A stretch of DNA of 63,624 nt. Origin: a virus. Taxonomy: Duplodnaviria; Caudoviricetes. The notes under the pieces are model-generated. The model was given only the letters and a program-made list of their open reading frames with translations, did no database searches and was not told the DNA's origin. The stretch's first letter is position 1, and each line of letters begins with the position of its first letter. The position numbers were made by a program, and so were the translations under genes. Shown one piece after another: positions 12,542-63,624 of this stretch. The DNA is taken from positions 1-63,624 of IMG/VR virus record IMGVR_UViG_3300046167_000634; one strand, given 5' to 3'.

Positions 12542-12542
12542 T

Positions 12543-15500: not shown

Positions 15501-16728
15501 AATCCAGGTATTTTTGAAACTGAACCAGCCGAAGATTTAAACCTTGATTTATACTATGCAGCAAGCCAAGCATTCCCTATAGCAGAGCATGGGAATGAAA
15601 AAACTTTAAATTGGTATAATTGTATTTCATTTGGTAATGGTGTAGAATCAAATAGAATACGTGATGATTATAATGCGCCTACGATTGATAAAGGGCCTAT
15701 TGTTTCTTCTGTATTAGATGAACCTTATAGAGAAGAGCGTAGGAAATCAAGTTTTATATTTTCACAAATATTTAATTCTACTTCCTGGTATTAATAGGTT
15801 AAACCAATTTATACAAGCTGAAAACATCACAAAAGATTTAAATCCTGTGCATGGTAGCATACAAAAACTACATTCTAGAGATACAGATTTGGTTACTCTT
15901 TGTGAAAATAAATGTTTTAAGGTATTATCTAATAAAGATGCATTATTTAATGCAGACGGTAATACTAATGTAACGTCAAATTTCAATGTTTTAGGTCAAG
16001 CAATTCCTTATCTAGGTGAGTTTGGTATATCAAATAACCCGGAAAGCTTTGCTGATTACGGCTTTAGAAGCTATTTTGCTGATAAAAATAATGGCAACGT
16101 TTTAAGACTTTCAAGAGATGGCATAGAAGAAATTTCTACCAAGGGTATGTCCGACTTTTTTACAGACGAATTGCGTATAGCAAAAAATATTATAGGTAAC
16201 TTTGACGAGGTCAGCGGAAGCTATAATATTACTTTAAACAATAAAACAATATCATTTAAAGAATCTGTAGGTGGTTGGCCATCTAGAAAATCATTTATAC
16301 CAGAGCAAGGAGTGTCTTTAAATGGAGTTTATTACACGTTTAAAAATGGTATTATTTGGTCGCATAATAATCCCTTAAAAAATACTTTTTATGGAGGAGC
16401 AACAGCTAAATCTTCTGTTAAATTAATATTTAATGATTCATCTTCAAAAATTAAAAACTTTAAAGCAATAAGCTATGAGGGTGATACCAGCTGGCAAGCA
16501 ACTAAAATAGTAACAGATAATCAAGAAGGTGTTGTTACAGATTTTAAAGAAAAAGAAGGAATTTATTACAACTTTATAAAAGGTGTGAATAATACGTGGG
16601 ATGGTGCTCTGCAAGCTGGAACACTAAACTTTAAAGAGTTTTCTACACAAGGAATTGGTAATTTATTATCAATTTCAGGTGATGATAAAACAGAATTTGT
16701 ACTAACAGTATCTGAAAATAACGATTAA
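12543..16728 (+). CDS. Muzzle/tail stabilisation protein (P22 gp10/crAss muzzle-like), module 1; +1 frameshift near 15785
   Basis: MPELKRFFTSGRMNKDLDERLLPNGEYRDALN start. The second frame continues GINRLNQF...GEFGISNNPESFA...VLRLSRDG, matching 54759-56132. Confidence 0.8.
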
Positions 16729-21504: not shown

Positions 21505-24500
21505 ATGTTTGAAATTTATACAGTTAACGGTGAAAAATATAAAGTATCACCTGATAGGAAAAAGGATTTTTTAGCTAAATTTCCAAACGCTCAATTATTT
21601 GAAGAGCCGGGAAAGACACCACCCACGACACCGGATGCGGTTGTGGAGGAAACTGCAGCATCCAATCAACCGAGTATGGAATTAGATTCGGTAGATACTT
21701 CATTGGAATTACAAGAGCCAATTAGCATTAGAAAAAAACAAAGATTACAAGAGCTTGAAAAAATTTCTTTAAATTCTATTAATCAAGGAACAACTAGTTC
21801 TTTGGGTGATATTAAAAAAAATGAACAAAGAAAAGGTTTTTTAGGCTCGTTGGTGTTATCATTATCTAAAATTCCAGCTAATTTGCAAAAGCAAGAAATA
21901 GGCATTAGAGATTTTATTCTTCTTAATTTAGATAAATTAGTTAATCCCGGTGATTCTAGAGAAGAAAGAATTAAAAGATTAAATGAATACTGGAATAATG
22001 ATGATGATCCTATGATAGGATTTCCTGGGCTTGGAATTATTCAATCAGCAGATACTAAAGAAGAGGCTGTTGAGGTAATTAAAGAAATACGAAATAAACA
22101 GCGCAAAACAGAAACAGAAAGTCTTTCTAAAGCGTTTAAAGAAGGTGACTATACTGATTCAGCATTTCTTGCGGCTGATGGATTAATACAAGCGCTGCCC
22201 TCTATAGCATTTAGCATGTATGGAGCCGGCGGTTTTGCGGTACACGGCGCTTTAATCGCTGGTGAAAAATGGGGGGATGAAATATTAGAAAATCCAGAAT
22301 CTACTGAATTAGCTATTGCTGGTAACGCTATAGCCACAGGAGCATTACAAGCGGCAAGTGATTGGGCCTTCAGGGGCTTATTAAAAAATGCGGGAGTAGT
22401 CGCTAAAGAAACTTCTGCAAAAGCAGCTAAAGAATATTTAAAAAATGGTTTTTTACAAACTGCTAAAAAATTTGCTGTTATACCAGGGGAGGGAGCAACA
22501 GAAGTTGTTCAAAATATAGCTAATAAATATTTAGATTTATACACATTAGGCAAAGAATTTAAATTTTCAAATATAAAAAATGAATTAATTGACGAATTTG
22601 TTATAGGAACTTTAATGAGCGGGGGAGTTACATTAGCTTCTTATGCTTCGGGAGCTTCAGATGCTCAAAAAGCTTATGCTGAAGGTGTACTAATGCCAGA
22701 AGATCAAAAAGCTAAATTAAATTTTTATGTTGATAAATATAATGAATTAGGCACGCAATATTCTAATGAATCAAATGATTTATCCAGAAAACAGATAGGA
22801 TTAGAATTAAAAAACGTAGAAAGTAATATTTCTTCTTTGCGTAGAAAATATAGAACAGCATTATATTCTATGAATTCGGAGCAATTAAATGAATATGCTA
22901 AAAATAAAGATAAAATATTAAAAATAAAAGAAAATATAGATTTGTCCTCTACGCCTGAAGGGCGAAATATTTTATTTAAAGAAATTGATATTTTAAATCA
23001 AAATAATAATGAAATTATTCAAGAGGCTGTAAAAATAAAATATAATGAAACTACAGCTAAAGCAGAAAAAGAAGCAGAAAAATTAGGTGTAAAGTTTACT
23101 AAATTTGAAAAAGCAATTGAATATCAAAATTATTTAGAGAGTTTAGGTGGCAATGAATTGTATAGCTCTAATGAAGGTGTTATTGTACAAAAAGATGGCA
23201 AGCAAGAAATAATTATAAATGAAGAAGCTGCTCAAGATAATACAGCGGTTAATGTAGCAGCGCACGAACTTTTGCATGCTGTTTTATACCGCACTTTAAA
23301 AGGAAAAGACGCAACTTCTGTAAAACTTGGAGATGCTTTAATAAATCAAATAAGTAAAATTAATATTAACAAAGTAAAAGATTCTGATTTAGCAAATAGA
23401 CTTAGAAATTATTTGCTAGAGCCGGAAGCAATTCAAGGGGAAGAAGCTTTAACTTTATTTTCTGATGCGCTTGCTACCGGGGATATACAATTTAATAATA
23501 ATATATTTAACTCAATAGGAGACGGCTTTAGAAGAATACTACAAAATAAAGGTTTTAAATCTATAAAATTTGACACCGGAAGAGATGTGTATAATTTTAT
23601 AAAAGATTATAATAAAAATGTTGAAAAAAATAATCTGGGAAAAGCTATTGAAAAAGTAGCTAAAGAAGGCGCTCGTGGTAAATTAGTTTCTGATACCGAA
23701 GCTACTGCCGGTATTGAATCTATATTAAAAGAATCTCGCTCGCAAGAAGCGTCAGATCGTGTGCAAAAAATATACGATGCCCAAGGCATAACCGGAGCGT
23801 TTGAAATAATTGAAGAATTTAAACCTATTACATTAAAAATAACGCGCAAAAGACGTGAGGCCCCAAACTATGATGAAGAACTTTTATCTTCTGAAATAGA
23901 AATTGGTAAAGGAGGATTGCTTGATTTAATAAAATCGTATAATCCTGAATCAGGGGTACCATTGGCGGCTTATATAAATAAAAATTTACCTTTAAGGGCC
24001 ATTGCAGCATCGAAAAGAATGTTAGGCGAACAATTTACAGAAGATGTAACTGAGCTCCGTGATGTTGCAATACAAGAAGAAATTAGTCGTAAAGAAGAAA
24101 TAGAAGAGCGAAAAATTGCTGAAGAAATAAAGTCTTTACGTAAACAAATAGGTTTATCAGAAGATCTTGTTGCTCGAACAAAAGACGCTGTAATAAAAAC
24201 CTTTGGCACAAAACTGCCATCTCCCGAGGATCCTAAATTTAAATTAGCATTACAAAATGCTTTCAGGGTAGAGCTTAAAAAACCTATAGCTAAGTTTGTG
24301 GGTAGACAAGCTGACTACGAAAACTTTCTTAGAAATAATTTTGAAGTAATATATGATAAATTAACTATTAATACTATTGCTAAAAGATTTAGAAATTTTG
24401 CAGAGCCAGTTATAGATAAAAGAACTGGTAAACAAGCACGAGAAAAGACTGATGAAGGCAATAAGATATTTAAAAAGAAAAAGCTAACTAAAGCTGAATT

Positions 24501-27500
24501 TATTGGGTATTTTTTAGGTAGCAATGTTGGTAGATCTACGCAGGGCACACGTAAAACAGCAATAGTGGAAGCTATAGCTGAAGAGATTGCTTTTGATGCT
24601 ACTATGGAAGTGTTACGTGACCCTATGGTTACAGAAAGATATTTACAAATATCTGAACTTATTGGCGATCCATTGCCAGAAAACTTTAAATCTTTAATTG
24701 CTAAACAAATTGATAGAGGCGAAGACTTTAAATTTTCAAAAAGTATATTAAATATATCTAAAAACGAATATGGATTAAATGAACAAGAATTATCAAAAAT
24801 ATTAAATAATACAAATTTAAAAAAGCTCGATGCCCAATATTCTTTAATAGCTGATAATATAATTTACGAAGCTAACCCAGTAGATATTAAATTTAGCCTT
24901 AGTACTAAAGCAGATTCTAAATGGGAGCAAAATCCCCTAAATCCATTAGCTGTTTATGATAAAAAATATGATTTTAAAGTAGGGGAAATTAATTACCAAA
25001 TTTCAATTATCACAGCTAAAGAAGCTGGCTATGATTACGAAATATTTGAAGGGAGCTACGGACTAGAAGATAATGCTATAATTAATGACCAAAAGTCAGT
25101 TGCATTAGCCTTTAGTACTGAATCTGGAAGAACAGGTATTACGGGAGATGGAGTTGAAAAGCGCACTAATGCGTTTAAGGTATTTGGTATTGTTGGAAAT
25201 AGTGTTATAGATTTAATTAAAAAAGATAATTTAAATTCTATTACATTTACCGCTAAAGAAGAAAGCAGACAGCGATTATATCAATCCCTATCAAATAAAT
25301 TTGCGGAAGAGCTTGGCTGGGAAATATATGATTTTGTTAACGACGATAGCGGGCTATCATTTTTAGTTTATGATCCAAAAATAACATCTGAAGAAAGCGT
25401 AGTTTTAAATACTCCATCTATAAAGTTTAGTAAATCTAAAGACTATCAGTTTACAGCAAAAGATGTATTGGCTAATGCGAAAGCATGGCGTAATTTTTCA
25501 AACAAACATTTTGAACAGTCAAAAATATACCAAGAAAAAATAGGTGATATTAGCAAAAAAGGGGGTGCCGTTAGACCCTCTAATATAATAAATAGAAATA
25601 TTATAAAAAATTTTGATAAGCTATCTAGTGAAGAAAAAAAGATTGTTGAGACTAAAATTGAAGAGCATCGGCAAAAAATTATTAATTATAAAACAAAAAA
25701 CAAAAAAAGCATCCGCCCAGAAAATATATATTATAAAAGCCCCGCTGTTGCATATGGTAAAAATTATGAGTCTATTAAAGAAAATATTAAAAATGGTAAA
25801 ATATTTGAATTAACCGAAGCTTATTCTAAAATTTATACCGATATGTGGGTTGCTTATTTTGAAATACTTAAAGAAAATCCAGATATGTATGATTTTCTTG
25901 AAATGTCTTTACAAACATCTAATAATGATGTAGCTCATTGGCAAAGACTAGGGGCTAGATTCACTGGTGTTGACCCGCAAGCACGGCAAGAAATACTTAA
26001 AAACAAAAAAGGCAAAACTATATATAGGTTTACAACTAAAACAGGTAAAAAAATCCCGGTTTTACGCACATATGAATTTGAGCATGCAGTACAAAACCAC
26101 CTGAACTGGTCTAAGAATTTAGAATTAGCAAAAAAACTTTCTAAAAAAGAAAACGGCAAAGAACTATATATTAAAGAAATTGAAAAAGCTAAAGAAAATT
26201 ATACTTTATTTGCTCTTTCTGTTTCTGACGCCAGAAAAGTTGATAAAGCGGGATATAGTCTAGAAATGCCTACAAATTGGAAAACATTTTTAGACAGATA
26301 TTTTAATCCTAAAGTTTCAAAAATAAACGGCGGAATTGATACAGAAAAAATATCTATAATAAAATATGAAAATAGCAAAGCAATTATTGATGATTCAACA
26401 GTAAAAAGTGTTTATAATATTAACAACGACGGGAGCCAGCTTAAATATTCTAAATCTGCTAGAGCAGCTGAATTTAATAAAATAATTGAAAGAGCTACTG
26501 GCTTTAAAACTAGAACTAAACTGGCAGAAGTTAAAGCAGATAAGCTTGCTAAAAATAAAGGCAAATTTAGATTTTTTATCCCGGCATCGGCTGATGATTT
26601 TGCTGGGCTACTTTATTATATAACAGGCAAAAGAAAGCAAGGTGATGCTGATATGCAATATTTTAAAGAAACATTTTTTGACCCATTTGCTAAAGGCATA
26701 GCTAAGTTTGATGAGTCAAAGCAAAGAGCGCTTGCTAATTTTAAAGAACTTAAAAAGTTAATAAGAAAAACACCAGCTAGATTATCTAAACAAAACGAAA
26801 CGGGCTTTACAAACGAAGAAGTTGCTCGTATATATATATGGGATAGTTTAGGGTATGATATTCCGGGTTTAACTAAAAAAGATATAAAGGAAGCTGTAAA
26901 GTTTGTTAAAAACAATAATGAGCTATTAGAATTTGCGCAAAATGTAAAAGGTATATCTGTGCTAGGATATCCGAAGCCAGATAATGGGTGGATAGCAGGT
27001 ACAATGACTACTGATTTACTTTCTTATGTTAATGAAACAGTCAGGGCTGATTTCCTTAAAGATTGGAAAACAAATGTAGACGCAACACTTAAAAAGCCTG
27101 ATGTATTAAATAAACTTAAAGCAACTTACGGAGAAAATTATACAGAAGCATTAGAAGACATTTTATTTCGCATGGAGACTGGTAGGCGCAGGCCAATGGG
27201 TAATAATAAGTTAACTAATCAAGTTATGAACTGGGTTAATGATTCCGTTGGTGCAATTATGTTTTTTAACACAAGATCAGCACTATTACAACAGCTTTCT
27301 TTTGTTAACTTTATTAACTTTAGTGATAACAATCCATTAAAAGCAGGAGCGACATTTACAAACCAAAAACAATTTTGGGCAGATTACGCTAATTTATTTA
27401 ATTCTGATTTTTTAAAACAAAGGCGTTCAGGGTTAAAAACAGATGTAAATGCAGATGAAATTGCAAAAGCGGCCGAGTCCGGTAAAAACCCAATTAGATC

Positions 27501-28491
27501 TGTTATAGCCTCTATACTTAAAAAAGGCTTTTTGCCAACCCAATTCGCAGATTCTCACGCAATAGCTTTAGGTGGCGCAAGTTTTTATAGGAACCGTATT
27601 AATAGGTATAAAAAGGAAGGTAAATTGCAACAAGAAGCAGAGCAGCAAGCGTTTTTAGATTTTCAAGAAATTGCAGAAGAAACGCAGCAATCTTCACGCC
27701 CTGACAGAATTTCTATGCAGCAAGCAAGTCCCCTAGGTCGTATTATATTAGCTTTTGCTAATACACCTATGCAATATGCTCGTTTAACTAAAAAAGCTGC
27801 TTTAGACTTAGCCAATGGACGTGGCGATTGGAAAACTAATTTAAGTAAGCTAATGTATTATAGTTTTATTCAAAACGTAATATTTACAGCATTGCAAGGA
27901 GCAATGTTTGCTATGATATTTGACGAAACAGATGATGAAGAAAAAGAAAAAGATAAATATTATAGAGCAGTCAATAATATATCCGATTCTTTACTTAGAG
28001 GTTTAGGATTTGGCGGTGCAGCAGTTGCAACAAGCAAAAATATGATTCTTGAAGCTATAAAACAATACAAAAGTAAACGACCAGATTATACAACTGTAGC
28101 ATTAAAATCTTTAAGCTTATCCCCGCCAATAGATTCAAAAATTAGAAAATTACAATCCGCTGGTAGAACTTTTACATATAGACAATCAAAAGAAAAAATA
28201 TTTACTGAAGGATTAAGTTTAGATAATCCAGCTTTTGAAGCAGTAGGTCAAATAATAGCGGCAACTACAAATTTACCAGCGGATAGAGTAATTAGGAAAA
28301 TGGATAACCTTTCTACGCCAATTAGGCAAGATGTTGAAACCTGGCAGGCTATATCGCTTGCGCTTGGCTATTCCAAATGGGATGTAGGTTTGATAGAAAC
28401 TAAAACTAAAAAACCTACTAAAAAGAAACAACTTTCTAAAAAACAAAAAGAAAAGAAAAGAAAAAAACAAACATTAAAAAGATTTGAGTGA
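21505..28491 (+). CDS. Giant multidomain internal virion (polyvalent) protein: zincin HExxH, sigma70 region-2-like segment, further domains
   Basis: 2328 aa; AAHELLHAVL (HELLH at 23263-23277); GLLDLIKSYNPESGVPLAAYI; repeated KFSKS-like linkers. Confidence 0.8.
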   Translation: MFEIYTVNGEKYKVSPDRKKDFLAKFPNAQLFEEPGKTPPTTPDAVVEETAASNQPSMELDSVDTSLELQEPISIRKKQRLQELEKISLNSINQGTTSSLGDIKKNEQRKGFLGSLVLSLSKIPANLQKQEIGIRDFILLNLDKLVNPGDSREERIKRLNEYWNNDDDPMIGFPGLGIIQSADTKEEAVEVIKEIRNKQRKTETESLSKAFKEGDYTDSAFLAADGLIQALPSIAFSMYGAGGFAVHGALIAGEKWGDEILENPESTELAIAGNAIATGALQAASDWAFRGLLKNAGVVAKETSAKAAKEYLKNGFLQTAKKFAVIPGEGATEVVQNIANKYLDLYTLGKEFKFSNIKNELIDEFVIGTLMSGGVTLASYASGASDAQKAYAEGVLMPEDQKAKLNFYVDKYNELGTQYSNESNDLSRKQIGLELKNVESNISSLRRKYRTALYSMNSEQLNEYAKNKDKILKIKENIDLSSTPEGRNILFKEIDILNQNNNEIIQEAVKIKYNETTAKAEKEAEKLGVKFTKFEKAIEYQNYLESLGGNELYSSNEGVIVQKDGKQEIIINEEAAQDNTAVNVAAHELLHAVLYRTLKGKDATSVKLGDALINQISKININKVKDSDLANRLRNYLLEPEAIQGEEALTLFSDALATGDIQFNNNIFNSIGDGFRRILQNKGFKSIKFDTGRDVYNFIKDYNKNVEKNNLGKAIEKVAKEGARGKLVSDTEATAGIESILKESRSQEASDRVQKIYDAQGITGAFEIIEEFKPITLKITRKRREAPNYDEELLSSEIEIGKGGLLDLIKSYNPESGVPLAAYINKNLPLRAIAASKRMLGEQFTEDVTELRDVAIQEEISRKEEIEERKIAEEIKSLRKQIGLSEDLVARTKDAVIKTFGTKLPSPEDPKFKLALQNAFRVELKKPIAKFVGRQADYENFLRNNFEVIYDKLTINTIAKRFRNFAEPVIDKRTGKQAREKTDEGNKIFKKKKLTKAEFIGYFLGSNVGRSTQGTRKTAIVEAIAEEIAFDATMEVLRDPMVTERYLQISELIGDPLPENFKSLIAKQIDRGEDFKFSKSILNISKNEYGLNEQELSKILNNTNLKKLDAQYSLIADNIIYEANPVDIKFSLSTKADSKWEQNPLNPLAVYDKKYDFKVGEINYQISIITAKEAGYDYEIFEGSYGLEDNAIINDQKSVALAFSTESGRTGITGDGVEKRTNAFKVFGIVGNSVIDLIKKDNLNSITFTAKEESRQRLYQSLSNKFAEELGWEIYDFVNDDSGLSFLVYDPKITSEESVVLNTPSIKFSKSKDYQFTAKDVLANAKAWRNFSNKHFEQSKIYQEKIGDISKKGGAVRPSNIINRNIIKNFDKLSSEEKKIVETKIEEHRQKIINYKTKNKKSIRPENIYYKSPAVAYGKNYESIKENIKNGKIFELTEAYSKIYTDMWVAYFEILKENPDMYDFLEMSLQTSNNDVAHWQRLGARFTGVDPQARQEILKNKKGKTIYRFTTKTGKKIPVLRTYEFEHAVQNHLNWSKNLELAKKLSKKENGKELYIKEIEKAKENYTLFALSVSDARKVDKAGYSLEMPTNWKTFLDRYFNPKVSKINGGIDTEKISIIKYENSKAIIDDSTVKSVYNINNDGSQLKYSKSARAAEFNKIIERATGFKTRTKLAEVKADKLAKNKGKFRFFIPASADDFAGLLYYITGKRKQGDADMQYFKETFFDPFAKGIAKFDESKQRALANFKELKKLIRKTPARLSKQNETGFTNEEVARIYIWDSLGYDIPGLTKKDIKEAVKFVKNNNELLEFAQNVKGISVLGYPKPDNGWIAGTMTTDLLSYVNETVRADFLKDWKTNVDATLKKPDVLNKLKATYGENYTEALEDILFRMETGRRRPMGNNKLTNQVMNWVNDSVGAIMFFNTRSALLQQLSFVNFINFSDNNPLKAGATFTNQKQFWADYANLFNSDFLKQRRSGLKTDVNADEIAKAAESGKNPIRSVIASILKKGFLPTQFADSHAIALGGASFYRNRINRYKKEGKLQQEAEQQAFLDFQEIAEETQQSSRPDRISMQQASPLGRIILAFANTPMQYARLTKKAALDLANGRGDWKTNLSKLMYYSFIQNVIFTALQGAMFAMIFDETDDEEKEKDKYYRAVNNISDSLLRGLGFGGAAVATSKNMILEAIKQYKSKRPDYTTVALKSLSLSPPIDSKIRKLQSAGRTFTYRQSKEKIFTEGLSLDNPAFEAVGQIIAATTNLPADRVIRKMDNLSTPIRQDVETWQAISLALGYSKWDVGLIETKTKKPTKKKQLSKKQKEKKRKKQTLKRFE

Positions 28492-30007: not shown

Positions 30008-31775
30008 TTACCCATCACAACTTAAACAATCTGGATCCATTGCTTTTGCTGCAATATCACCTCTGAGTACCGATTCGGTACGCATATAATATAAAGTCTT
30101 AACGCCTTTTTTCCACGCATCTAAATGCACTTGATTAATCCACTTAGGTGAAGCTTCAGAAGGAAACGCTAAGTTAAGTGATACAGCTTGATCAACATAT
30201 TGTTGTCTGATCCCAGCTTGATTAACCAGCTCTAATTGGTTTATTTCTTTAAAGGTTTTAAATACATCTTTGACTGTATCAAAGCCCGTTAAATCGAGCG
30301 ATTCTTGCTCTGAAATACGCGTAAGCTTTTTATTTACATATCCCCAATCATCTAGCTCAGGTATATCTTGTACACTGCCGCCATCGGCCATTATTTTATC
30401 CCACGTTTCATTAGTGTTAATACCTGCTTTACGAAGCACTTTAGTTAGCTCTTTGTTTTTCCTAATGAACGTACCCTTCGCACTTTGTTCAGTGAAAACA
30501 TTAGCGGCCCAAGGCTCAATACCAGGACTAACGTTACCGGCAAGCTTACTATTAGACACAGTAGGAGCAATAGCCCTAAGATGAGTGTTACGAAACCCAG
30601 TACCGCGGCACCACAAAGGTTCACCATAAACTTCAGCAAGAGCCCTAGATGCTCTTTCACTTTCAATTTTAATTTGCGAAAATATTCTTCGCGTTTCAAA
30701 CTGCGCTTGTAACCCCTCAAACGGGATTCCATTTTGCTGGAGGTATGTGTGCCATCCAAGTACGCCAAGGCCGATAGCTCTGCCTTTTTCTGCAGATCTG
30801 ACTGCATTTTCAAATCCTTTGAGTCCTTTTGCTTTTTGCAAATACTCTTCCAAGACGCCGTCAAGAAACCATATAGCGTCATATATAAGGTTTGTATTCT
30901 TCCACTCTTCATATTTAGTTAAATTTACTGATGATAAACAACAAACAAAGCTATGTGACTCATCTGTATGCAATGTAATTTCACTGCATATATTTGTCAT
31001 GTGTACCTTTAATGCGTTTTCTTTATATGCTTTTGGATTTGCTTTGTTAACATTTCCTTTAAACATGATATACGGCTCTCCAGTTGCTTTTCGTTTTCTA
31101 ATAAGTTTACTCCATCGAGTCCGCGCTTCCGAATCTCCTTGTTCAAGGCGTCGCATAAACTTATCACCAACAACTGCGCATTGATGAAGGTTGAGTGACT
31201 GTCTGTTAACGTCGCCTTTTGGTTCTCTAATTTCAAGCCACTCTTCAAAATCGTCGTGTTCAATATTGATATTGACTGATGCTGCGCCTCTGCGAACAGA
31301 GCCTTGATTAGTCGCGAGGATAGTTGAGTCGTAGATTTTGCAAAAGGGGACAACTCCGTCTGATGTTCCATTACCTGTAATTGTTGCTCCGGCAGGACGT
31401 ATCATATTTAATCCGATACCAACTCCCCCGCCGTGTTTAGCTAGTAACATCATTTCTAAATTTTTACCTCCTATGTCGGCTATGCTATCACCTACATCAA
31501 TGCCAAAGCAAGAAATAGGTAACCCAGCGATCAGTACCTGTGTTACTAAGTACAGGGCTAGCGAGGTTAAGCCAACCTTTCCAAATATAATCAAAAAACG
31601 TTTCACTCAGTTCCGGTTTGTACAATCGTCTTGCGACTGTTGTTGCGACTCTTTTGTATGCATCACGGGGTGACTCACCTTGCAGCAAATATCCCCCGGA
31701 TATAGTTTTCTTGTATACGTCGGTATCTCCCCAGATTGGGTAATCAATACCTTTTTTCCATTCATTATTCCACAT
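30008..31775 (-). CDS. nrdA: Class I ribonucleotide reductase alpha subunit; frameshift near 31530
   Basis: LASPVLSN; GLPISCF; TNICSEI; FVCCLSS; AIAPTVSNS; KTLYYMR; C-terminal CLSC. Confidence 0.93.
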
Positions 31776-32029
31776 TATTTAAAAAATAAAATTGTGTAGG
31801 CTATAGCTACATTTAAATTAACTAATACTAAGTTCCATTGCTTTGCTACAAATACTTGAGGAATTGATATTACTCCTGCAATAATATATGTAACTATACC
31901 TGTTCTATCAGGTAATATATGTGGGGATAACATCATAAATGCCGTCCCCATATATCCTAATCTATTCGCGAGTCTTTCAATAGGCTTTAGCCTACGTTGT
32001 ACTAAAAATTTTAATACTTTCTTATTCAT
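31775..32029 (-). CDS. Small membrane protein
   Basis: 84 aa with about three hydrophobic segments, between nrdB and nrdA. Confidence 0.6.
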   Translation of the reverse strand: MNKKVLKFLVQRRLKPIERLANRLGYMGTAFMMLSPHILPDRTGIVTYIIAGVISIPQVFVAKQWNLVLVNLNVAIAYTILFFK

Positions 32030-35656: not shown

Positions 35657-36418
35657 CTACAGGTAATCAATAACTTGGTTCGATGGAACGTTATCAATTA
35701 ACTTCTCTATTGCTGCTTTTTTAATTTCAGATACACGCACATAATTACTTACTCCGTCTATATTTAATTTAGCAGCTATCTCCTTTGCTGGGTGTTTGTC
35801 ACAGTCTAAGCCATAAGATAATCTTATTACTTCATACTCTTTATCACTTAAATGCTCACTCATAAGGCCGAGTAAATAAGCATTCAGCAAAGCTATGTTA
35901 TAAGGCTCGGAGTTATCCGGTACTTGAAACATAGGGCTTTCGTTTTCACTTTCAAAATTCTCATCTATTGATGCAAATATTTGGTTAAAAAAGGTTTCAA
36001 CTATTTTTTTGTCTTTACCATAATTTTTACGTATCTCATTTAATTTATATTCTGGTATACGCATATCCCCTCTATTTATATCTATAGCTCTTCTAATAGC
36101 ACCTCGTATTCTTTTAGCTAAGAATGATTTGAGCGTTTTTTCAGGGTCGTCAGACTCTTTAACTTTATCCCAAACAATTCTATCGCATGCCACAGTAAGT
36201 CCTATTGCACCCTCTTGTATAAAATCATTTATACTAAGCACTCCAGACGCTTGCTGCATAGTAGAAAACTTTCGCGCTATATTTTCTACTAATGGTAAAA
36301 ACACGGTTTGCAGTTCTTCTCTAGTATAATCCCAAAAGTCTTTACTAGGTATTCTTTTTATTACTACATCTAGATCTTGTTTATATCTAATATAGTTCTG
36401 CACATTATACTTTTTCAT
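35657..36418 (-). CDS. Phage RNA polymerase sigma factor (sigma70 family)
   Basis: Region 2: LPLVENIARKF..DFIQEGAIGL..RIRGAIRRAI; region 4: LSDKEYEVIRLSYGL..KEIAAKL..RVSEIKKAAIEKL. Confidence 0.88.
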   Translation of the reverse strand: MKKYNVQNYIRYKQDLDVVIKRIPSKDFWDYTREELQTVFLPLVENIARKFSTMQQASGVLSINDFIQEGAIGLTVACDRIVWDKVKESDDPEKTLKSFLAKRIRGAIRRAIDINRGDMRIPEYKLNEIRKNYGKDKKIVETFFNQIFASIDENFESENESPMFQVPDNSEPYNIALLNAYLLGLMSEHLSDKEYEVIRLSYGLDCDKHPAKEIAAKLNIDGVSNYVRVSEIKKAAIEKLIDNVPSNQVIDYL

Positions 36419-58838: not shown

Positions 58839-61800
58839 ATGAATAAAATTTATATTATAAACGGCGAACGATTTGAAGTTTCTCCGGATCGCGAAGCGGA
58901 TTTTTTAGCTGAATATCCAGACGCTCAACTAATTAGTGGGCCGGAAGATTTAACAGAAAAGCCGCAAGAAACTATTGTTGAACAAACCGAAGAACAAGAA
59001 ACGTTTGAGGATCCATTCCTCCAAAGCGCAAAAAAGATATACGGCCCTGTAGAGGAGGTTGCAGTTGCAGAGCCGACAACAACAATCGAGCAACCAGATA
59101 CGGAATTACCTTCGGAAGATACTTCTTCGGAGTTAGTAGAGGAAGACAATAGAGTTGTAGAATTTAACATAAAAGGTAACAAAACATATAGCTCATATAG
59201 TGATCTTGAAAAAGAGCACGGCGATGTAGAAGCGTGGGTTACAAATTGGAATAATCAAACAAATACAGGTAGAGCTAAAATAGTTACACCTTCTTCTGAG
59301 CTTAAAGAAGCAGTTGTTACGGGTGATGCGTCTAAAGTAAAAAAACCTGCTGAAATATTGCTTGGTAGTGGAGCAATTACCCCTGAAACATTTCAAGAAT
59401 TAGAGACTGACGAAATTATACCAATGGTTGCAAGAATCATACAACCTAATTCTAATTTAAGTGTTTATGAACAGGACAACCGCGTTTTTATAAAAGATAA
59501 AAAAACCGATACAGCTATTGGATTATCTACTAAAACAAATTTTGCTAATGAAAAAGATGCGGAAATTTCATATAATAATTTTGCAAGACTTTTAAATAAA
59601 AACTTTACGCCTGAGCAAGTCACAGCAAGCGCAGGCACGCTTTCAACAATTGATCAAGAATTAAAAAAGCAATCGGCTATTATTAAAAATCAATTTAAAA
59701 ATACCGAAGAATATAAAAAATTACAAGATCCTGATTTATTTAAAGAGCAAACTAAAAAAGATATTAGAACTGGCCCAGGGGGCGGGGTAGCGCTTACTAA
59801 AAAAGTTATTCCATACGAAGAAGAGGTTCAAGCAGAAATAGCAAAATTAAAAGCAAAAAACCCAGATACTACTGAAGACAAAATTTTAGCAACCGCTCAA
59901 GCCAATGTAAGAGAAACCCTATTACAAAATGCTAAGTTTGAATATGTTGCTGAAAGTTTTACTAAAAAAATTGAAGGATTTGATGTTGACAAAAAGCTTA
60001 AAAAAGAAGTTCAAGCAGACTATAATATTACTTTAAATAGAGCTAACGCATATCAGCAAGCTTTGCTTGACGAAATAGAAGGGCAAAGACAAGTTGCGGA
60101 TACTACCTTAAAACTAATTAAAGGTAATGAATTAACCCAAGAAGAGGTAGATAATTTAGCTACATCACTTGAAAAGTCAGGCGTTGAAGTTGATACATCA
60201 AAAACAAAAACTGTGACTTTGCCAAGCGGCGCAGTATTAACAGAGGGAACTTTAGAAGCTTTAGATAAGTTTCAGAAAAAAGCTGCTGCTAATGAAATTT
60301 TATTATTTAAAAGTCAAGAGGAAAAAGCTAAAGCTATTGGTGACATTACTTTAACTCAAGCTGCATTAGATGCAACTAAACGCGATTATGATTTAATAGA
60401 CAAATATGGTGCGTCAATTGGCCTTGGGTTTACAGATATAATTACAGGAGGAGCTTATTTAGGTGGCAAGGTATTTTCATATAGTAATCCTATAGGGTGG
60501 TTATTTCACGAAGATATTAACACAGGATTAAATCGTTTAGGTGTAAAATATAAAAAGGCTACAGATGAAGTCCGTAATAGTTATGTGCGCGATATTTCTT
60601 TTGACAACGCTTTTAAAGACTCTTCTAACTTTGGTAAGTTTGTAGGGCAAGAAATAGCAAATCAATTACCAATTATTACAACTATGATTGCGTCAGGCGG
60701 TACGGCTGCTCCTTGGGTTATTGGAGCATCTACTGCTGGAGGCAAGATGATGGACATGCAAACAGAAATTGCAACCGGTACAAAAGATTATTCAGAGGCT
60801 GAAATGTGGCTTAAGTCTATTGGCTATGGTGCTGCAGAGGGTATTTTTGGCACATTGCCAACTATGCGAATATTAAAACGCACCCCAGCTCTTTTTAAAG
60901 GTGCAGGAACAAAAGACGCTATACTAGGCGGTACTAAACAATTTTATAAGCAAAACACAAAAGGATTAATTTCAGACACCTTATTAGAGGTTGGCGGCGA
61001 ATCTTTAACTACTGGTTTTCAAAATGTAATTGATGGAAGATCATTTGTAGCTGATATGGATCACGCTGCATTTTCAGCATTTGGCTTTAGCCTTTTGTTT
61101 AGCGGCTTACCATTTGCAGTAGGTTTGAATACATCTAAATACGGTGACTATTCTCAAAAAGCTAAAATACGTAATCTACAAGGCCAAATAAATAATCTTA
61201 GTAATAATCTTAAATATACTAAGTCACCAGCGGAAATAAATCGTATTGAAGGACAAATTGAAAAGCTAAGCAATGAAATGGCTATTGAGGTTGCTAGGCA
61301 AGAAAAGTTTGTAAATAATTACATGACGTCTACCTCGGCGCAGCATGTAATCGATGTTGTAACCCGTCAAGAAAATATTAGAAGCGAAGCAAAAACAATT
61401 GAAGCCGATAAAGAACTACCTAGGCAAGAAAAAAATACACGTTTAGGTGAATTGCAATTAGAGTTTTCCGAACTACAAAGTGCTAAAGAATCTGCTCTTA
61501 CTGACGCTGCTAAAATGAATTTTAAAACAGAGTTTTTATTACTTAAAGGCGTTGACAAAGCTAAATATGATGAATACTTTGATGACGCAGCAACTTTACT
61601 TAATAGCCAAAAACCTGATAAAAACATTACAGACGAGGCTATAGAACAAAAAGCTGTTGATTTATATTTTGAAGATCAGGTTGTTGAAGAAAATAGCAAA
61701 GCTGCAAAAAACTTAGGTACTAATTTTAAATCATTTAATACTGTTGATGAAGCAATTGCTTCAATAGAAGCGGATAATAAAATTAATGATGCAGATAAAA

Positions 61801-63624
61801 AAGATGCAATAGCGAATCTTAAAGAAGGTGATGATGGCCGCGCATTTCAAAATGAAGACGGTAGCAAAGTTACATATGCGGTTGTTGAAAACCAAGTATT
61901 AAATAAAAGAAAATATATACGTACACACGAGGTTGGCCATCAAGTATTTTGGGATATATTTGGCTCCCATAATACGACAGAAGGTAAGGCTATTTTTAAT
62001 AATATTGCTGAACAATTATTACATACAACAAAAGAAATTAGCCCTGCGTTGCACAAAAAATTATCACAAGAAACTTTACCCGTAGAAGTTATTGCTAGAT
62101 TTTTAGAAGCTGCTGCAGCCGGTCAAGTTGATGCTAGAAAGCCAAGCACTAATAAAGCTATATCAGGATTGTTTGGTACAATGTTACAACAAAATGCTAT
62201 TGATAGCTACGACTTTAATTTTACAGGTGAAACAGATATGTTTAACTTTGTTGTTGGGCTTGGTAAAAAAATTGCTTCAGGCGAGCTTTCAATGGCTGAT
62301 ATACGCGCTGCTAGAACAGGACGTGTAGTACAAATGCCAATGCAAACAGAGCAAGCTACTCTTACTCGTCGGGCCGCATCGGCGAGATCTGCGGGGACAT
62401 TAGACCAGGCTTTAAATAAGTTTTCACAAAACGAAGACGGCTCTGCCAAGTTTGCGAGCAAAGAAGAATGGCGTAAATCTTCAGAAGCGGGTGAAGCATA
62501 CTTTACTGTGCAACAAACAAGTTTGCTTGACGGTGAAATTAGAAAGCAAGCAAGACTAAAAGGATTACCGGAAGACATTGACATTAGCGAAATTAAAGAT
62601 AATATTGCGCTTCGCGTATTTGAAAACTATGATCCATCTAAAAATAATTTATTTGGTTATCTTTTAGGTAAAGTTAATATTGTAGAAAAAGCTGTACTTG
62701 ATTCGGCTAAAAAGTTTGGTACTCGTGTAGAATCTACCGCAGCAAGTATTGATACTGCAGCCGGTGAAACGGGTGCGGTTGCTGAAATTGAAGCAGATGT
62801 AACAACTGTAGATGAAAAAATAGAAAGAGAAGCTAAGGAGGCTACAGAAGAGGCTTCTGCGTTTAATTTAACCACTTCTAAAGCTATTGAGCCAACTACT
62901 TTGGAAAAAGGGAAAGGCAAAGTATTAAGTATTGTTAGAACGCTTAAAAATAAATTAGGTGCTGCTGTATCTAAGAATGTAAATACTGTACCAGTTGTTG
63001 AAGAAGTAATACAATCTTCTGCTAAATCAATTGATATTGACATTAAAGGGCAAATGGGTGGTAAAGGCGGCTTAAAACTTCGCAAGTTTGTAATTAACAA
63101 CAAAGCTGATATTATTAACAATGCTTCCTCTACTTGGCTAATGGGTAAAAACAAAAAAGGCAGTTCTGTAGTCAATGGCGGTATACCTATTGTTATTGAA
63201 AAGTCTGTAGGCGGTAGATATACCGGTAAAACTATTGAAATAAATGTTGGTGGTAAAACTGTTGCAGTTGAAGAATTTATACCAAACTTTTTGCCATATC
63301 CAGAATGGGCTGGTAAAAAAATTGATCGCGAAAAAACAATTAAAAGAGGGCAAACATCAGGAAATCAAATTGTAAGAAAAGTTGATCCGCTTGAGGTTGA
63401 TGACAAAGCTTTTGCAGATTTTGTAACAACTGAAGATGGTACACCAATACGCGGTAGAAAAGAATCATTAGCAAATGAGCTTGCAGGCAGATTAGGTGGG
63501 CAGATATTTAAAGAAGCAATAGCTGATCCTGATTCAGATATATCAAAAGCATTTGAACAAAATCAAGATCTTCGCGGGGCTGTACTTTCAGATAACTTTA
63601 GAAATGAAGTTATTGAACAAACAG
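58839..63624 (+). CDS. Giant multidomain internal virion protein, module 2 (3'-partial; absent from the ORF track)
   Basis: MNKIYIINGERFEVSPDREADFLAEYPDAQ matches the N-terminus of 21505; RTHEVGH (HEVGH at 61926-61940); ENYDPSKNNLFGYL; runs to the window end. Confidence 0.8.
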   Translation, partial: MNKIYIINGERFEVSPDREADFLAEYPDAQLISGPEDLTEKPQETIVEQTEEQETFEDPFLQSAKKIYGPVEEVAVAEPTTTIEQPDTELPSEDTSSELVEEDNRVVEFNIKGNKTYSSYSDLEKEHGDVEAWVTNWNNQTNTGRAKIVTPSSELKEAVVTGDASKVKKPAEILLGSGAITPETFQELETDEIIPMVARIIQPNSNLSVYEQDNRVFIKDKKTDTAIGLSTKTNFANEKDAEISYNNFARLLNKNFTPEQVTASAGTLSTIDQELKKQSAIIKNQFKNTEEYKKLQDPDLFKEQTKKDIRTGPGGGVALTKKVIPYEEEVQAEIAKLKAKNPDTTEDKILATAQANVRETLLQNAKFEYVAESFTKKIEGFDVDKKLKKEVQADYNITLNRANAYQQALLDEIEGQRQVADTTLKLIKGNELTQEEVDNLATSLEKSGVEVDTSKTKTVTLPSGAVLTEGTLEALDKFQKKAAANEILLFKSQEEKAKAIGDITLTQAALDATKRDYDLIDKYGASIGLGFTDIITGGAYLGGKVFSYSNPIGWLFHEDINTGLNRLGVKYKKATDEVRNSYVRDISFDNAFKDSSNFGKFVGQEIANQLPIITTMIASGGTAAPWVIGASTAGGKMMDMQTEIATGTKDYSEAEMWLKSIGYGAAEGIFGTLPTMRILKRTPALFKGAGTKDAILGGTKQFYKQNTKGLISDTLLEVGGESLTTGFQNVIDGRSFVADMDHAAFSAFGFSLLFSGLPFAVGLNTSKYGDYSQKAKIRNLQGQINNLSNNLKYTKSPAEINRIEGQIEKLSNEMAIEVARQEKFVNNYMTSTSAQHVIDVVTRQENIRSEAKTIEADKELPRQEKNTRLGELQLEFSELQSAKESALTDAAKMNFKTEFLLLKGVDKAKYDEYFDDAATLLNSQKPDKNITDEAIEQKAVDLYFEDQVVEENSKAAKNLGTNFKSFNTVDEAIASIEADNKINDADKKDAIANLKEGDDGRAFQNEDGSKVTYAVVENQVLNKRKYIRTHEVGHQVFWDIFGSHNTTEGKAIFNNIAEQLLHTTKEISPALHKKLSQETLPVEVIARFLEAAAAGQVDARKPSTNKAISGLFGTMLQQNAIDSYDFNFTGETDMFNFVVGLGKKIASGELSMADIRAARTGRVVQMPMQTEQATLTRRAASARSAGTLDQALNKFSQNEDGSAKFASKEEWRKSSEAGEAYFTVQQTSLLDGEIRKQARLKGLPEDIDISEIKDNIALRVFENYDPSKNNLFGYLLGKVNIVEKAVLDSAKKFGTRVESTAASIDTAAGETGAVAEIEADVTTVDEKIEREAKEATEEASAFNLTTSKAIEPTTLEKGKGKVLSIVRTLKNKLGAAVSKNVNTVPVVEEVIQSSAKSIDIDIKGQMGGKGGLKLRKFVINNKADIINNASSTWLMGKNKKGSSVVNGGIPIVIEKSVGGRYTGKTIEINVGGKTVAVEEFIPNFLPYPEWAGKKIDREKTIKRGQTSGNQIVRKVDPLEVDDKAFADFVTTEDGTPIRGRKESLANELAGRLGGQIFKEAIADPDSDISKAFEQNQDLRGAVLSDNFRNEVIEQT

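What the first reader, a model, noticed from the sequence alone, without database searches (positions are those of the whole stretch)
23250..24030. Virion-packaged giant protein carries a zincin motif followed by a sigma70 region-2-like domain
After AAHELLHAVL (with a downstream QGEE candidate third ligand), the protein reads IIEEFKPITLKITRKRREAPNYDEELLSSEIEIGKGGLLDLIKSYNPESGVPLAAYINKNLPLRAIAASKR (23806-24018). This follows the sigma70 region 2 pattern (L...LPLV..IA.R......EDL.QEG..GL..A...FDP.RG..F..YA...IR..I), which binds core RNAP and melts the -10 element. The gene occupies the position where crAss-like phages encode their virion RNA polymerase with zincin, yet I found no DxDxD polymerase motif. 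Hypothesis: the phage injects a sigma-like domain that redirects or blocks host RNAP before any phage gene is expressed, and the free sigma gene acts later, forming a two-step cascade.
Basis: partly seen in the sequence, partly recalled or inferred. Interest (0 to 1): 0.85.

Follow-up and report, generated by a model that had tools for sequence, protein, structure and literature searches.

The report
Sigma-like domain inside giant phage protein
A 2,328-residue structural-module protein of an uncultured marine flavobacterial phage carries a conserved metalloprotease-like domain followed directly by a divergent copy of the core-binding, DNA-melting domain of bacterial sigma factors, which suggests that the phage delivers a ready-made piece of sigma factor into the cell with its DNA.

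Summary
ORF 21505-28491 (+) encodes 2,328 aa with HELLH at aa 587-591, invariant E646/E647, no DxDxD, and the quoted stretch at 23806-24018.

The block aa 746-842 is the most conserved part of the protein. Several methods point to sigma-70 region 1.2/2:
- A family profile against PDB sequences gave 6 sigma factors among 8 hits, FliA at E=0.005.
- Sub-threshold Pfam and NCBIfam hits are dominated by sigma families.
- The AlphaFold2 model has pLDDT about 90 over the domain. 47 of its 48 listed Foldseek PDB hits are sigma or holoenzyme entries, but none reaches E<=0.001.
- 25 of 30 named ESM-Atlas neighbours are Sigma70_r2 clusters.

It fails Pfam's threshold, hhalign against the phage's free sigma is inconclusive, and no region 4 was found.

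The HExxH domain resembles M78/IrrE-type zincins, also below threshold.

Virion packaging rests only on synteny with the 3,694-aa "structural protein" of Elemovirus phages. RNAP binding is untested.

My best reading is a polyvalent ejection protein that delivers a sigma-2 module to host RNA polymerase. This is a new variant of a known kind.

The parts
21505..28491 (+). Giant ORF P0001, 2,328 aa. It is the last large gene of the first structural block (terminase, portal, capsid, muzzle, then this gene).
   Evidence: ORF list and translation. The neighbours are terminase, portal, virion structural and crAss-type muzzle proteins. Whole-protein searches of Pfam, PHROGs, PDB sequences and phage tblastn gave no hit. 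916 relatives at E<=1e-3 were found with aa 560-900.
21505..21600 (+). N-terminal module of about 32 aa (MxxIYxxNGExxxVSPDRxxDFLAxxPxAQL), shared with the second giant ORF.
   Evidence: BLASTP of P0001 against the ORF at 58839: 38% identity over aa 1-71, E=7e-12. Six-frame search of the window also finds it, E=2.3e-9.
23146..23697 (+). Zincin-like (gluzincin, M78/IrrE-like) domain, aa about 548-731. HELLH lies at nt 23263-23277 and the invariant E646/E647 at nt 23440-23445.
   Evidence: HExxH in 81 of 81 family members. H, E, H, Y636, E646 and E647 are invariant. Pfam voting over 71 members: Peptidase_M78 23 (best E 7.3e-5), DUF3267 14, SprT-like 6, all below threshold. In the AF2 model both motifs lie in helices. 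No protease appears among the 48 listed Foldseek hits of the three-domain model.
23740..24030 (+). Sigma-70 region 1.2 plus region 2-like (sigma-2) domain, aa 746-842. It is the conservation peak of the protein.
   Evidence: Conservation profile. PDB profile hits to FliA, SigE-N, SigK and RpoH. Sigma70_r2 and TIGR02937 are the families most often matched by members. AF2 pLDDT is about 90 over model residues 10-100. Foldseek top hits are sigma domain 2, for example 8b3z with TM 0.69 normalised to the target and rmsd 2.5. ESM Atlas: 25 of 30 named neighbours carry PF04542.
24034..24066 (+). Conserved linear motif FTxDVTEAxGV (aa 844-854) in a predicted disordered linker. It is a candidate processing site or docking motif (inference).
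   Evidence: F844, D847 and E850 are invariant in 21 close relatives. pLDDT is below 50 for aa 843-868. A related D..EAK.V..EE motif is visible in distant relatives.
24109..24738 (+). Downstream helical domain with a small beta element, aa 869-1078. Its function is unknown and only a subfamily has it.
   Evidence: HMM hits in 37 rows (about 33 distinct sequences, P0001 counted three times) of the loci and homologue set. AF2 pLDDT is about 90. No ESM Atlas lead and no Pfam hit.
26452..28404 (+). C-terminal conserved block, aa about 1650-2300, with one strongly hydrophobic segment at aa 2121-2139 (nt 27865-27921). A role in the ejection channel or membrane insertion is inferred only.
   Evidence: Conservation profile. 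Kyte-Doolittle scan.
35657..36418 (-). Free phage sigma factor, 253 aa, with regions 2 and 4.
   Evidence: Six-frame hits to PF04542 and PF04545. Pfam 20.7 and 20.0 bits. phrog_351 'RNA polymerase sigma factor', E=1.3e-21. More than 8,000 relatives. Present in 5 of 5 related records.
58839..63623 (+). Second giant ORF, at least 1,595 aa, running off the record. It has the same N-terminal module, HEVGH at nt 61926-61940, and a sigma-2-like stretch (YDPSKNNLFGYL) within nt 62352-62837.
   Evidence: BLASTP against P0001: the zincin region aligns at E=0.002. Sequence print. It aligns within A2. It was not found in 5 related records.

Best explanation
P0001 is a giant multi-domain ('polyvalent') internal-virion or ejection protein of an Elemovirus-related podophage of marine Flavobacteriia.

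Its conserved core has two modules:
- An M78/IrrE-like zincin domain, aa about 548-731.
- Directly after a short disordered linker, a divergent but genuine sigma-70 region 1.2/region 2 (sigma-2) domain, aa 746-842.

A second disordered linker follows and carries a conserved DVTEA motif.

Shown here: the domain order, its conservation, the sigma-2 fold, and the absence of any RNA-polymerase motif or gene in the record.

Inferred:
- The protein travels into the cell with the DNA.
- The sigma-2 module, tethered or released by proteolysis at the linkers, docks on the beta-prime clamp helices of host core RNA polymerase, as sigma-2 domains do.
- It thereby captures host polymerase for the entering genome, working as a minimal region-2-only sigma in the manner of T4 gp55, or it blocks host sigma binding.
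- The phage's own complete sigma (35657-36418) takes over later.
For: Sigma-2 identity:
- Profile A2 against PDB sequences gave 6 sigma factors among 8 hits (FliA E=0.005, SigE-N 0.01, 8x6g_H 0.028, SigK 0.1, RpoH 0.55). The alignments are in register over regions 2.1-2.3. The closer-family profile A1 puts sigma factors in its top two places.
- Sigma70_r2 is the Pfam family matched by most members, 7 of 70.
- In NCBIfam the window's own domain hits only SigK (E=0.019), and 12 of the 25 listed families are sigma families, best TIGR02937 at E=1.7e-4.
- The AF2 model has pLDDT about 90 over residues 10-100. 47 of the 48 listed Foldseek PDB hits are sigma or holoenzyme entries. TM normalised to the target is 0.69 for the SigE N-domain and 0.54 for RpoS region 1.2+2.
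- In the ESM Atlas, 25 of 30 named neighbours are PF04542 clusters, top score 0.97.

Functional constraint:
- This is the conservation peak of a fast-evolving protein.
- The profile finds 609 cluster representatives at E<=1e-3, and 117 of the 142 newly listed ones are at least 1,000 aa.

Polyvalent architecture:
- The slot after the zincin domain holds other modules in relatives: Zeta-toxin/AAA_33 kinase in L035 and P0078, and a different, unassigned sequence in elemo gp20, whose record notes DUF3293 without saying where.

Dependence on host RNAP:
- No RNAP family matched in six-frame searches and none appeared in the PHROG or Pfam scans of the large ORFs.
- A free sigma co-occurs in 5 of 5 relatives.

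Virion location:
- The gene ends the structural operon.
- The syntenic elemo gp20 shares the zincin-like domain (E=1.1e-8) and is annotated 'structural protein'.
Against: - The window's own domain gets no Pfam Sigma70_r2 hit, even at E<=10.
- No Foldseek hit reaches E<=0.001.
- hhalign of the family against the phage's free-sigma family gives P=0.021 and probability 2.3%.
- No region 4 or other known DNA-binding domain was found.
- By recalled E. coli sigma-70 numbering, only the Y430 equivalent (Y823) is kept. W433 and W434 correspond to K and N/F, and the core-binding residues Q406, E407 and N409 correspond to E, I/T and K. Neither melting nor core binding can be read from the sequence.
- Virion presence is not demonstrated for this family, and I did not see the basis of the elemo annotation.
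- No promoter motif emerged from the intergenic regions.
- The record may be a chimera, so 'no RNAP gene' is weak.
Confidence: 0.5

Rival explanations
1. The sigma-2 fold is real but has been co-opted for a job that does not involve RNA polymerase. Examples would be holding single-stranded or end DNA of the phage genome during packaging or ejection, or acting as a structural or adaptor element of the internal-protein bolus.
For: The most conserved stretch (PLAAYIN..RAIEAS, aa 819-835) maps to the helix that in sigma factors faces the non-template -10 strand, according to the alignment registers. The residues that contact core in E. coli sigma-70 (recalled) are not kept. The domain occurs almost only inside giant proteins.
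Against: The phage shows no polymerase of its own and carries a sigma gene, so host RNAP capture is the obvious need. The slot is exchangeable with enzymatic effector-type domains in relatives, which fits an effector better than a structural element.
Confidence: 0.22
2. The sigma-2-like module is a targeting or bait domain for the adjacent M78/IrrE-like peptidase. It brings the protease to RNA polymerase, to a sigma-binding regulator (anti-sigma) or to a defence repressor, which is then cleaved.
For: The zincin-then-sigma-2 order is fixed and both are conserved together. Sub-threshold hits fall on M78/IrrE (23 of 71 members), a family whose characterised members cleave HTH transcription regulators (established knowledge, recalled).
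Against: The same zincin domain is followed by unrelated modules in relatives, which argues that the protease serves the polyprotein in general, for example by processing it, rather than the sigma-2 module specifically. No substrate is known.
Confidence: 0.1
3. The resemblance is generic. The domain is a four-helix bundle unrelated to sigma factors that attracts weak sigma hits by composition and helix lengths.
For: Every individual score is weak: Pfam shows nothing for the window's own sequence, Foldseek E-values are 0.06-0.8, and hhalign probability is 2.3%.
Against: Methods of different kinds (PDB sequence profile, two HMM libraries, predicted fold, language-model embedding) all converge on the same family, in the same register, and include the hallmark F/Y-D-P-x-x-G-x-x-L/F-x-x-Y motif and the region 1.2-like D-x-V-x-x-x-Y-x-x-x-G. 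The tool states that shuffled sequences reach 0.95 or more about once in 100.
Confidence: 0.12
4. The giant protein is itself a cryptic virion RNA polymerase of a new type, with a built-in sigma-like promoter module.
For: Its position resembles that of virion RNAP genes in crAss-like and N4-like phages (recalled). Much of the protein has no recognisable fold.
Against: There is no DxDxD motif, no PF00940 or PF00623 signal, and no PDB sequence hit other than sigma factors at E<=10. The middle of the protein, aa 1080-1650, is poorly conserved.
Confidence: 0.05

Closest known systems
Sigma-70 family, domain sigma-2 (regions 1.2-2.4; Pfam PF04542). Nearest solved examples by these searches: sporulation SigE N-domain (8b3z), SigK (8vjl), FliA (9wsf), RpoS region 1.2+2 (5h6x).
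   Same: The helix order and lengths match. The region 1.2-like D-x-V..Y...G, the region 2.2 glycines and hydrophobic core, and the F/Y-D/N-P-x-x-G-x-x-L-x-x-Y turn all match.
   Different: It is embedded in a 2,328-aa protein and has no region 3 or 4. It falls below Pfam's threshold. The aromatic melting residues other than one Tyr are not kept (recalled numbering). An acidic linker with a conserved DVTEA motif follows.
Phage T4 gp55, a region-2-only late sigma that needs gp33 and the sliding clamp (established knowledge, recalled), and the small viral 'Sigma-70 region 2 domain-containing' clusters of 102-119 aa.
   Same: These are sigma-2-only modules that phages use to redirect host core polymerase. 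Small viral Sigma70_r2 clusters are the nearest ESM-Atlas neighbours.
   Different: Those are free proteins made after infection. Here the module is part of a giant protein of the structural operon, so it would be pre-made and delivered. No gp33-like partner was identified.
Polyvalent proteins of phages and conjugative elements (Iyer et al. 2017, PMC5512222; I saw the search listing and abstract start, plus passages citing it in PMC7824862).
   Same: It is a giant multi-domain protein with a zincin-like metallopeptidase and exchangeable effector-type modules, such as the Zeta-toxin kinase in relatives. It is presumed to be injected with the DNA.
   Different: A sigma-like module is not mentioned in that paper's main text (0 occurrences of 'sigma' in the listing). 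I did not see its supplementary domain tables.
Virion RNA polymerases of crAss-like (phi14:2 gp66) and N4-like phages.
   Same: These are giant proteins encoded with the structural genes and ejected to start early transcription (recalled; abstracts of N4 papers seen in the listing). The neighbouring muzzle protein is crAss-type.
   Different: There is no DxDxD motif, no polymerase family signal and no sequence similarity to any solved polymerase. The transcription-related part is a sigma fragment, not a catalytic core.
gp20 of Flavobacterium phage vB_FspP_elemoC_14-1A (NC_062743.1), 3,694 aa, annotated 'structural protein'.
   Same: It is a syntenic last gene of the structural block. It shares the zincin-like domain (E=1.1e-8, HEIFH) and an N-terminal segment (E=8e-5). 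TerL is 45% identical.
   Different: It has no sigma-2-like block after the zincin domain. The record notes DUF3293.

Membership tests
Sigma-70 region 2 (PF04542 / TIGR02937) | Score above the curated family threshold. | tested here: not met
   The window's own domain gets no PF04542 hit at E<=10 or E<=1. Among relatives, 7 of 70 match at E<=1, best 0.011. For TIGR02937, 7 of 70 match, best 1.7e-4. The window's own domain hits SigK at E=0.019, 14.5 bits against a cut-off of 298.
Sigma-70 region 2 (PF04542 / TIGR02937) | The sigma-2 helical fold (region 1.2 helix, then the 2.1, 2.2 and 2.3-2.4 helices). | tested here: met
   The AF2 model has pLDDT about 90 over residues 10-100. In Foldseek against the PDB, 47 of 48 listed hits are sigma or holoenzyme entries, probabilities are 0.66-1.0, TM normalised to the target is 0.69 (8b3z) and 0.54-0.55 (5h6x), but E-values are 0.06-0.8. 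This rests on a predicted, not solved, structure.
Sigma-70 region 2 (PF04542 / TIGR02937) | Region 2.2/2.3 sequence hallmark (G..GL...... F-D-P..G..F..Y). | tested here: met
   HMMER alignments to SigE, SigK and FliA are ungapped or nearly so over this stretch. The motif is present in 46 of 70 family rows.
Sigma-70 region 2 (PF04542 / TIGR02937) | Aromatic and basic residues of regions 2.3/2.4 that melt and read the -10 element. | tested here: inconclusive
   In the alignment register, only the Tyr equivalent to E. coli Y430 is conserved (Y823; W or F in distant relatives). The W433/W434 positions are K and N/F. The E. coli numbering is recalled, not taken from a call.
Complete sigma factor | Region 4 (-35 / flap-tip binding HTH). 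| tested here: not met
   The PF04545 six-frame search of the window hits only the free sigma gene. There is no Pfam hit in aa 560-1070 and no Atlas lead for aa 869-1078.
Complete sigma factor | Binding to core RNAP (beta-prime clamp helices) and promoter-specific initiation. | not testable with these tools
   This needs pull-down and in vitro transcription assays.
Zincin (gluzincin) metallopeptidase, M78/IrrE-like | HExxH plus a downstream Glu ligand. | tested here: met
   HExxH is present in 81 of 81 members. H587, E588, H591, E646 and E647 are invariant. Both motifs lie in predicted helices. Which Glu is the ligand is inferred.
Zincin (gluzincin) metallopeptidase, M78/IrrE-like | Family HMM above threshold, and the zincin fold. 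| tested here: inconclusive
   Pfam voting over 71 members: Peptidase_M78 23 (best 7.3e-5), DUF3267 14, SprT-like 6. The window's own domain gets DUF3267 at 0.098 and SprT-like at 0.11, all below cut-off. The PDB profile search gave nothing relevant. No protease appears among the 48 listed Foldseek hits of the three-domain model.
crAss-like virion RNAP (phi14:2 gp66 type) | DxDxD catalytic motif in a double-psi beta-barrel. | tested here: not met
   There are 0 D.D.D matches in P0001 and none is positionally conserved in the 40 homologues printed. The model of aa 562-1085 is almost all helical. The rest of the protein was not modelled.
crAss-like virion RNAP (phi14:2 gp66 type) | Sequence similarity to the solved enzyme. 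| tested here: not met
   phmmer of P0001 and the full-length family profile against all PDB chains gave no polymerase hit at E<=10. That the PDB holds gp66 is recalled.
Polyvalent proteins (Iyer et al. 2017) | A very large phage protein that joins a metallopeptidase with exchangeable effector domains. | tested here: met
   The zincin domain is conserved, and the next slot holds sigma-2-like, Zeta-toxin/AAA_33 or other modules in relatives.
Polyvalent proteins (Iyer et al. 2017) | Delivery into the host with the DNA. | not testable with these tools
   Only synteny and the 'structural protein' label of elemo gp20 are available.

The most novel reading that the evidence does not exclude
These abundant marine flavobacterial phages inject a ready-made sigma. 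A sigma-2 module is built into the DNA-ejection protein, possibly freed by the neighbouring zincin or by cleavage at the conserved DVTEA linker, much as pro-sigma E and K are activated by proteolysis. It captures host core RNA polymerase at the point of DNA entry and starts, or pulls in, the genome without a virion polymerase and without host sigma. The phage's complete sigma then runs the later programme. This would be a third strategy for early phage transcription, beside host-sigma promoters and injected polymerases.
Probability: 0.2. Interest if true: 0.9.

Novelty: new variant of a known kind. Interest (0 to 1): 0.72.

Why it matters
Phages are known to start transcription in two ways. 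Some use host holoenzyme on early promoters. Others inject their own polymerase (N4, crAss-like and phiKZ-like phages).

A sigma-2 domain carried inside a giant structural-module protein would be a different solution: delivering the specificity and core-binding part only. The domain is conserved across hundreds of 50%-identity clusters of marine phage proteins.

The idea is directly testable with a domain of about 100 aa and Flavobacterium RNA polymerase. The finding also:
- adds a transcription module to the repertoire of polyvalent injected proteins;
- gives a first functional handle on giant proteins that no library annotates;
- offers a natural minimal sigma-2 scaffold for studying core binding.

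Tried and rejected
- Whole-protein searches of Pfam, PHROGs, PDB sequences and cultured-phage tblastn returned nothing. tblastn of aa 562-876 at E<=1 against 50,697 phage records also returned nothing.
- Direct Pfam scans of sub-fragments gave no sigma hit.
- hhalign of the family against the phage's own free-sigma family was in the expected register but not significant (P=0.021, probability 2.3%). That template alignment is shallow (at least 74% identity).
- The complex prediction of aa 737-848 with residues 200-400 of Flavobacterium johnsoniae RpoC gave 'no answer' (score 0.07 against a mark of 0.32).
- Foldseek of the three-domain model (aa 562-1085) gave only low-probability, long, high-rmsd alignments to sigma-70 chains. 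These do not show regions 3 or 4, and no protease hit appeared. BFVD returned only uncharacterised uncultured-virus relatives.
- The ESM Atlas gave no lead for aa 869-1078.
- The Bacteroidetes promoter pattern TTTG-N17-23-TAnnTTTG (recalled consensus) occurs 7 times against 5.6 expected, and none lies in an intergenic region. A k-mer comparison of 17 intergenic regions gave no shared motif.
- The idea that the 5'-open ORF at 3-908 is the C-terminus of the second giant ORF was rejected. It looks like a fibre protein and the record's ends do not overlap.
- The short 'stand-alone' hits in the representative search look like fragments.
- The search of earlier findings held nothing for this genome.
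- Four literature searches found no description of a sigma-like domain in an ejected or virion protein. Subscription journals and supplements were not seen.
Full report
WHAT IS THERE

The window is one complete IMG/VR virus record of 63,624 bp, linear, with a CheckV estimate of 99% and 35% G+C. ORF 21505-28491 (+) is open for 2,328 codons. It closes a structural block: large terminase (2758-4971), portal (4972-7395), a virion structural protein (8670-10070), and a muzzle protein of the crAss type in two ORFs (12543-15794 and 15718-16728; PF25729 crAss_MUZ_C at E=1e-9).

AAHELLHAVL begins at aa 585 (nt 23257), QGEE at aa 644, and IIEEFKPITL...AIAASKR covers aa 768-838 (nt 23806-24018). The protein has no D.D.D.

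Taken whole, the protein matches nothing in Pfam (E<=10), PHROGs, the PDB sequences or 50,697 cultured or deposited phage records.

THE FAMILY AND ITS CONSERVATION

Searching with aa 560-900 found 916 proteins at E<=1e-3. Nearly all are 1,300-2,500 aa, from marine or aquatic metagenomes, and many sit on contigs of 58-65 kb.

In a 19-sequence full-length alignment, two blocks are conserved: aa 560-1070 and aa 1650-2300. The middle is not.

Eighty related loci were fetched from viral contigs. A profile of the HExxH region finds that domain in all 80 loci plus P0001, and each of the 81 has HExxH. H587, E588, H591, Y636, E646 and E647 are invariant in 71-sequence alignments.

The sigma-like block is recognised by a profile of close relatives in only 25 of 83 sequences. 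A MAFFT alignment anchored on the zincin domain shows that many distant relatives keep a motif at the same distance after HExxH. That motif looks even more sigma-like, for example ERFDPNTAKFSTFV and SFNPEVNDSLFGWINSQIRNKA. 46 of 70 aligned rows carry it. The second giant ORF of this window does too.

IS IT A SIGMA-2 DOMAIN?

Negative first:
- PF04542 searched in six frames over the window hits only the free sigma gene.
- hmmscan of the fragment finds no sigma family at E<=10.
- hhalign of the 70-sequence family alignment (A2) against an 18-sequence alignment of the phage's own free sigma gives the right register but P=0.021 and probability 2.3%.

Positive:
1. hmmsearch of A2 against 177,635 distinct PDB sequences returns 8 hits at E<=10. 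Six of them are sigma factors: two FliA sequences at E=0.005, the SigE N-domain 8b3z at 0.01, 8x6g_H at 0.028, SigK at 0.1 and RpoH at 0.55. The alignments run from region 2.1 to 2.3. The close-family profile A1 and the full-length profile A3 also place sigma first.
2. Scanning each of the 70 members against Pfam makes Sigma70_r2 the family matched by most members, 7 of 70, best E 0.011. In NCBIfam the window's own fragment has a single hit, SigK at E=0.019. 12 of the 25 listed families are sigma families, led by TIGR02937 (7 members, best 1.7e-4).
3. AlphaFold2 with A2 gives mean pLDDT 78, about 90 or higher for residues 10-100, and a helical domain. Foldseek against the PDB gives no hit at E<=0.001. 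However, 47 of the 48 listed hits are sigma factors or RNAP-sigma complexes; only a cyclophilin at rank 12 is foreign. Probabilities are mostly 0.8-1.0. TM normalised to the target is 0.69 with rmsd 2.5 Å over 76 columns for the SigE N-domain, and 0.54 for an RpoS fragment made of region 1.2 plus region 2.
4. ESM-Atlas features of aa 746-847 give 25 of 30 named neighbours with PF04542, a top score of 0.97 and 170 of 256 shared features. The tool states that shuffled sequences reach 0.95 about once in 100.

I conclude, at about 0.85, that aa 746-842 is a divergent homologue of sigma domain 2. It is not a formal Pfam member, and it is not a complete sigma: no region 4 was found.

THE ZINCIN PART

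The motif is conserved as a gluzincin would be: HExxH, then an invariant EE 55 residues later, inside EE.LTLFSD. Scanning 71 members gives Peptidase_M78 (IrrE/ImmA-like) for 23 (best 7.3e-5), DUF3267 'putative zincin peptidase' for 14, SprT-like for 6, M61 for 3 and Tox-MPTase4 for 1. All are below threshold. The window's own copy reaches only 0.098 and 0.11.

The PDB profile search gave nothing relevant. The Foldseek list of the three-domain model contains no protease. The motif and family leaning are therefore supported, while the fold is unconfirmed.

ARCHITECTURE

The AF2 model of aa 562-1085 has mean pLDDT 81 and pTM 0.45. It shows three well-predicted bodies separated by two disordered linkers, aa 732-745 and 843-868.

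The second linker contains F844, D847 and E850, invariant in close relatives within FTxDVTEAxGV. A related D..EA[KR].V..EE is visible far out in the family. A conserved motif in a disordered linker next to a protease domain suggests a cleavage or docking site. This is inference.

The third body, aa 869-1078, exists only in a subfamily and has no lead. The C-terminal block has one strongly hydrophobic segment at aa 2121-2139.

DOMAIN EXCHANGE AND CULTURED RELATIVES

In L035 and P0078 the slot after the zincin domain holds a Zeta-toxin/AAA_33-type kinase. BFVD's second hit is an uncultured-virus 'UDP-N-acetylglucosamine kinase'.

By TerL, 87 phage records match: Flavobacterium elemo phages 68, Cellulophaga 15, Tenacibaculum 2, Maribacter 1. 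The best is a metagenomic Caudoviricetes record at 62%, and the elemo phages are at 45%.

In elemoC_14-1A the gene in the same place is gp20, 3,694 aa, annotated 'structural protein; DUF3293'. It contains the same zincin-like domain (E=1.1e-8, HEIFH) and an N-terminal segment similar to P0001 aa 234-388 (E=8e-5), but it has no sigma-like block. gp20 has relatives only among the elemo phages.

This matches the pattern described for polyvalent proteins of phages. I saw the listing and abstract start of PMC5512222, and passages of PMC7824862 saying that such proteins are injected with the DNA. The listing shows 0 occurrences of 'sigma' in PMC5512222. Its supplements were not available to me.

HOW IT MOST LIKELY WORKS

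The record shows no RNA polymerase. PF00623 gave no hit while its controls matched in 14 of 14 genomes. PF00940 gave no hit but its controls were uninformative. No RNAP appears in the PHROG or Pfam scans of the large ORFs.

The record does encode a complete sigma. That sigma is very widespread and is present in 5 of 5 related near-complete records that carry the giant protein. The phage therefore depends on host core polymerase.

A sigma-2 domain's established job is to bind the beta-prime clamp helices and the -10 non-template strand. T4 gp55 shows that a region-2-only sigma can work (recalled). The most economical reading is that the giant protein is ejected with the DNA and its sigma-2 module engages host core polymerase, either to initiate on or pull in the entering genome, or to exclude host sigma.

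What is shown: domain identity, order, conservation, exchangeability, and co-occurrence with a free sigma. What is inferred: packaging, ejection, processing, RNAP binding and timing.

Against the strong form, the residues equivalent to E. coli W433/W434 and Q406/E407/N409 (recalled numbering, register) are not kept. I also found no early-promoter motif.

COMPARISON AND NOVELTY

The domain works like, and is probably descended from, sigma-2. It fails the curated threshold and lacks region 4, so I do not file it as a sigma factor.

The protein is not a crAss or N4-type virion polymerase by any test made here. It fits the polyvalent-protein concept and adds a module that was not found described in four literature searches (limited to the open-access library and bioRxiv).

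I rate it a new variant of a known kind, with interest 0.72.

CAVEAT ON THE RECORD

The window carries two muzzle sets and two giant ORFs, and no replication genes were seen. The second giant ORF is absent from 5 related records. The record may therefore be a chimeric assembly. This does not affect the domain finding, which rests on hundreds of relatives, but it weakens any argument from gene content.

Noticed in passing
window 58839-63623 (+), runs off the end: A second giant ORF of at least 1,595 aa. It has the same N-terminal module of about 30 aa as P0001 (E=7e-12), an HEVGH zincin-like motif (nt 61926-61940) aligned to HELLH (E=0.002), and a sigma-2-like motif YDPSKNNLFGYL. It has glycine-rich hydrophobic stretches around aa 520-760. 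It was not found in 5 related near-complete records.
   Followed up: partly
window 12543-16728 and 50379-56132: There are two sets of crAss-type muzzle protein genes, each split into a long and a short ORF (the first pair overlaps by 77 nt), plus duplicated ring-like virion proteins at 47922-50379. No DNA polymerase, primase or helicase was seen. The record may be a chimeric assembly of two related phages or a real duplication.
   Followed up: partly
L035 (about 6520-6945) and protein P0078: In some relatives the slot that holds the sigma-2-like domain is occupied by a Zeta-toxin/AAA_33-type kinase domain (AAA_33 E=4.5e-13, Zeta_toxin 1.8e-11). BFVD lists an uncultured-virus 'UDP-N-acetylglucosamine kinase' as a structural neighbour.
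   Followed up: no
window 24034-24066 (aa 844-854): The motif FTxDVTEAxGV is invariant or nearly so in close relatives, yet lies in a linker predicted to be disordered. Related D..EA[KR].V..EE motifs occur in distant relatives. It may be a protease site of the V-x-E|A kind.
   Followed up: no
In one related record the gene is interrupted by TAA and TAG stops.
   Followed up: no
window 45624-46745 (+): A GroEL-like gene of only 373 aa matches Cpn60 positions 124-488 and so lacks the N-terminal part. The elemo phages carry full GroEL and GroES.
   Followed up: no
window 11961-12542 and 909-1183: Two unusually long stretches (582 and 275 nt) have no ORF of at least 70 aa, inside an otherwise tightly packed structural operon. 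Their composition looks coding-like to the eye. They may hold frameshifted or short genes.
   Followed up: no
window 30008-37690 (-): The minus-strand block holds nucleotide-metabolism and DNA-handling genes: RNR large and small subunits, a Holliday-junction resolvase-like protein, a MazG-like protein, thymidylate synthase, a DNA-binding protein and the sigma factor. The RNR large subunit matches only the C-terminal two thirds of its profile.
   Followed up: no
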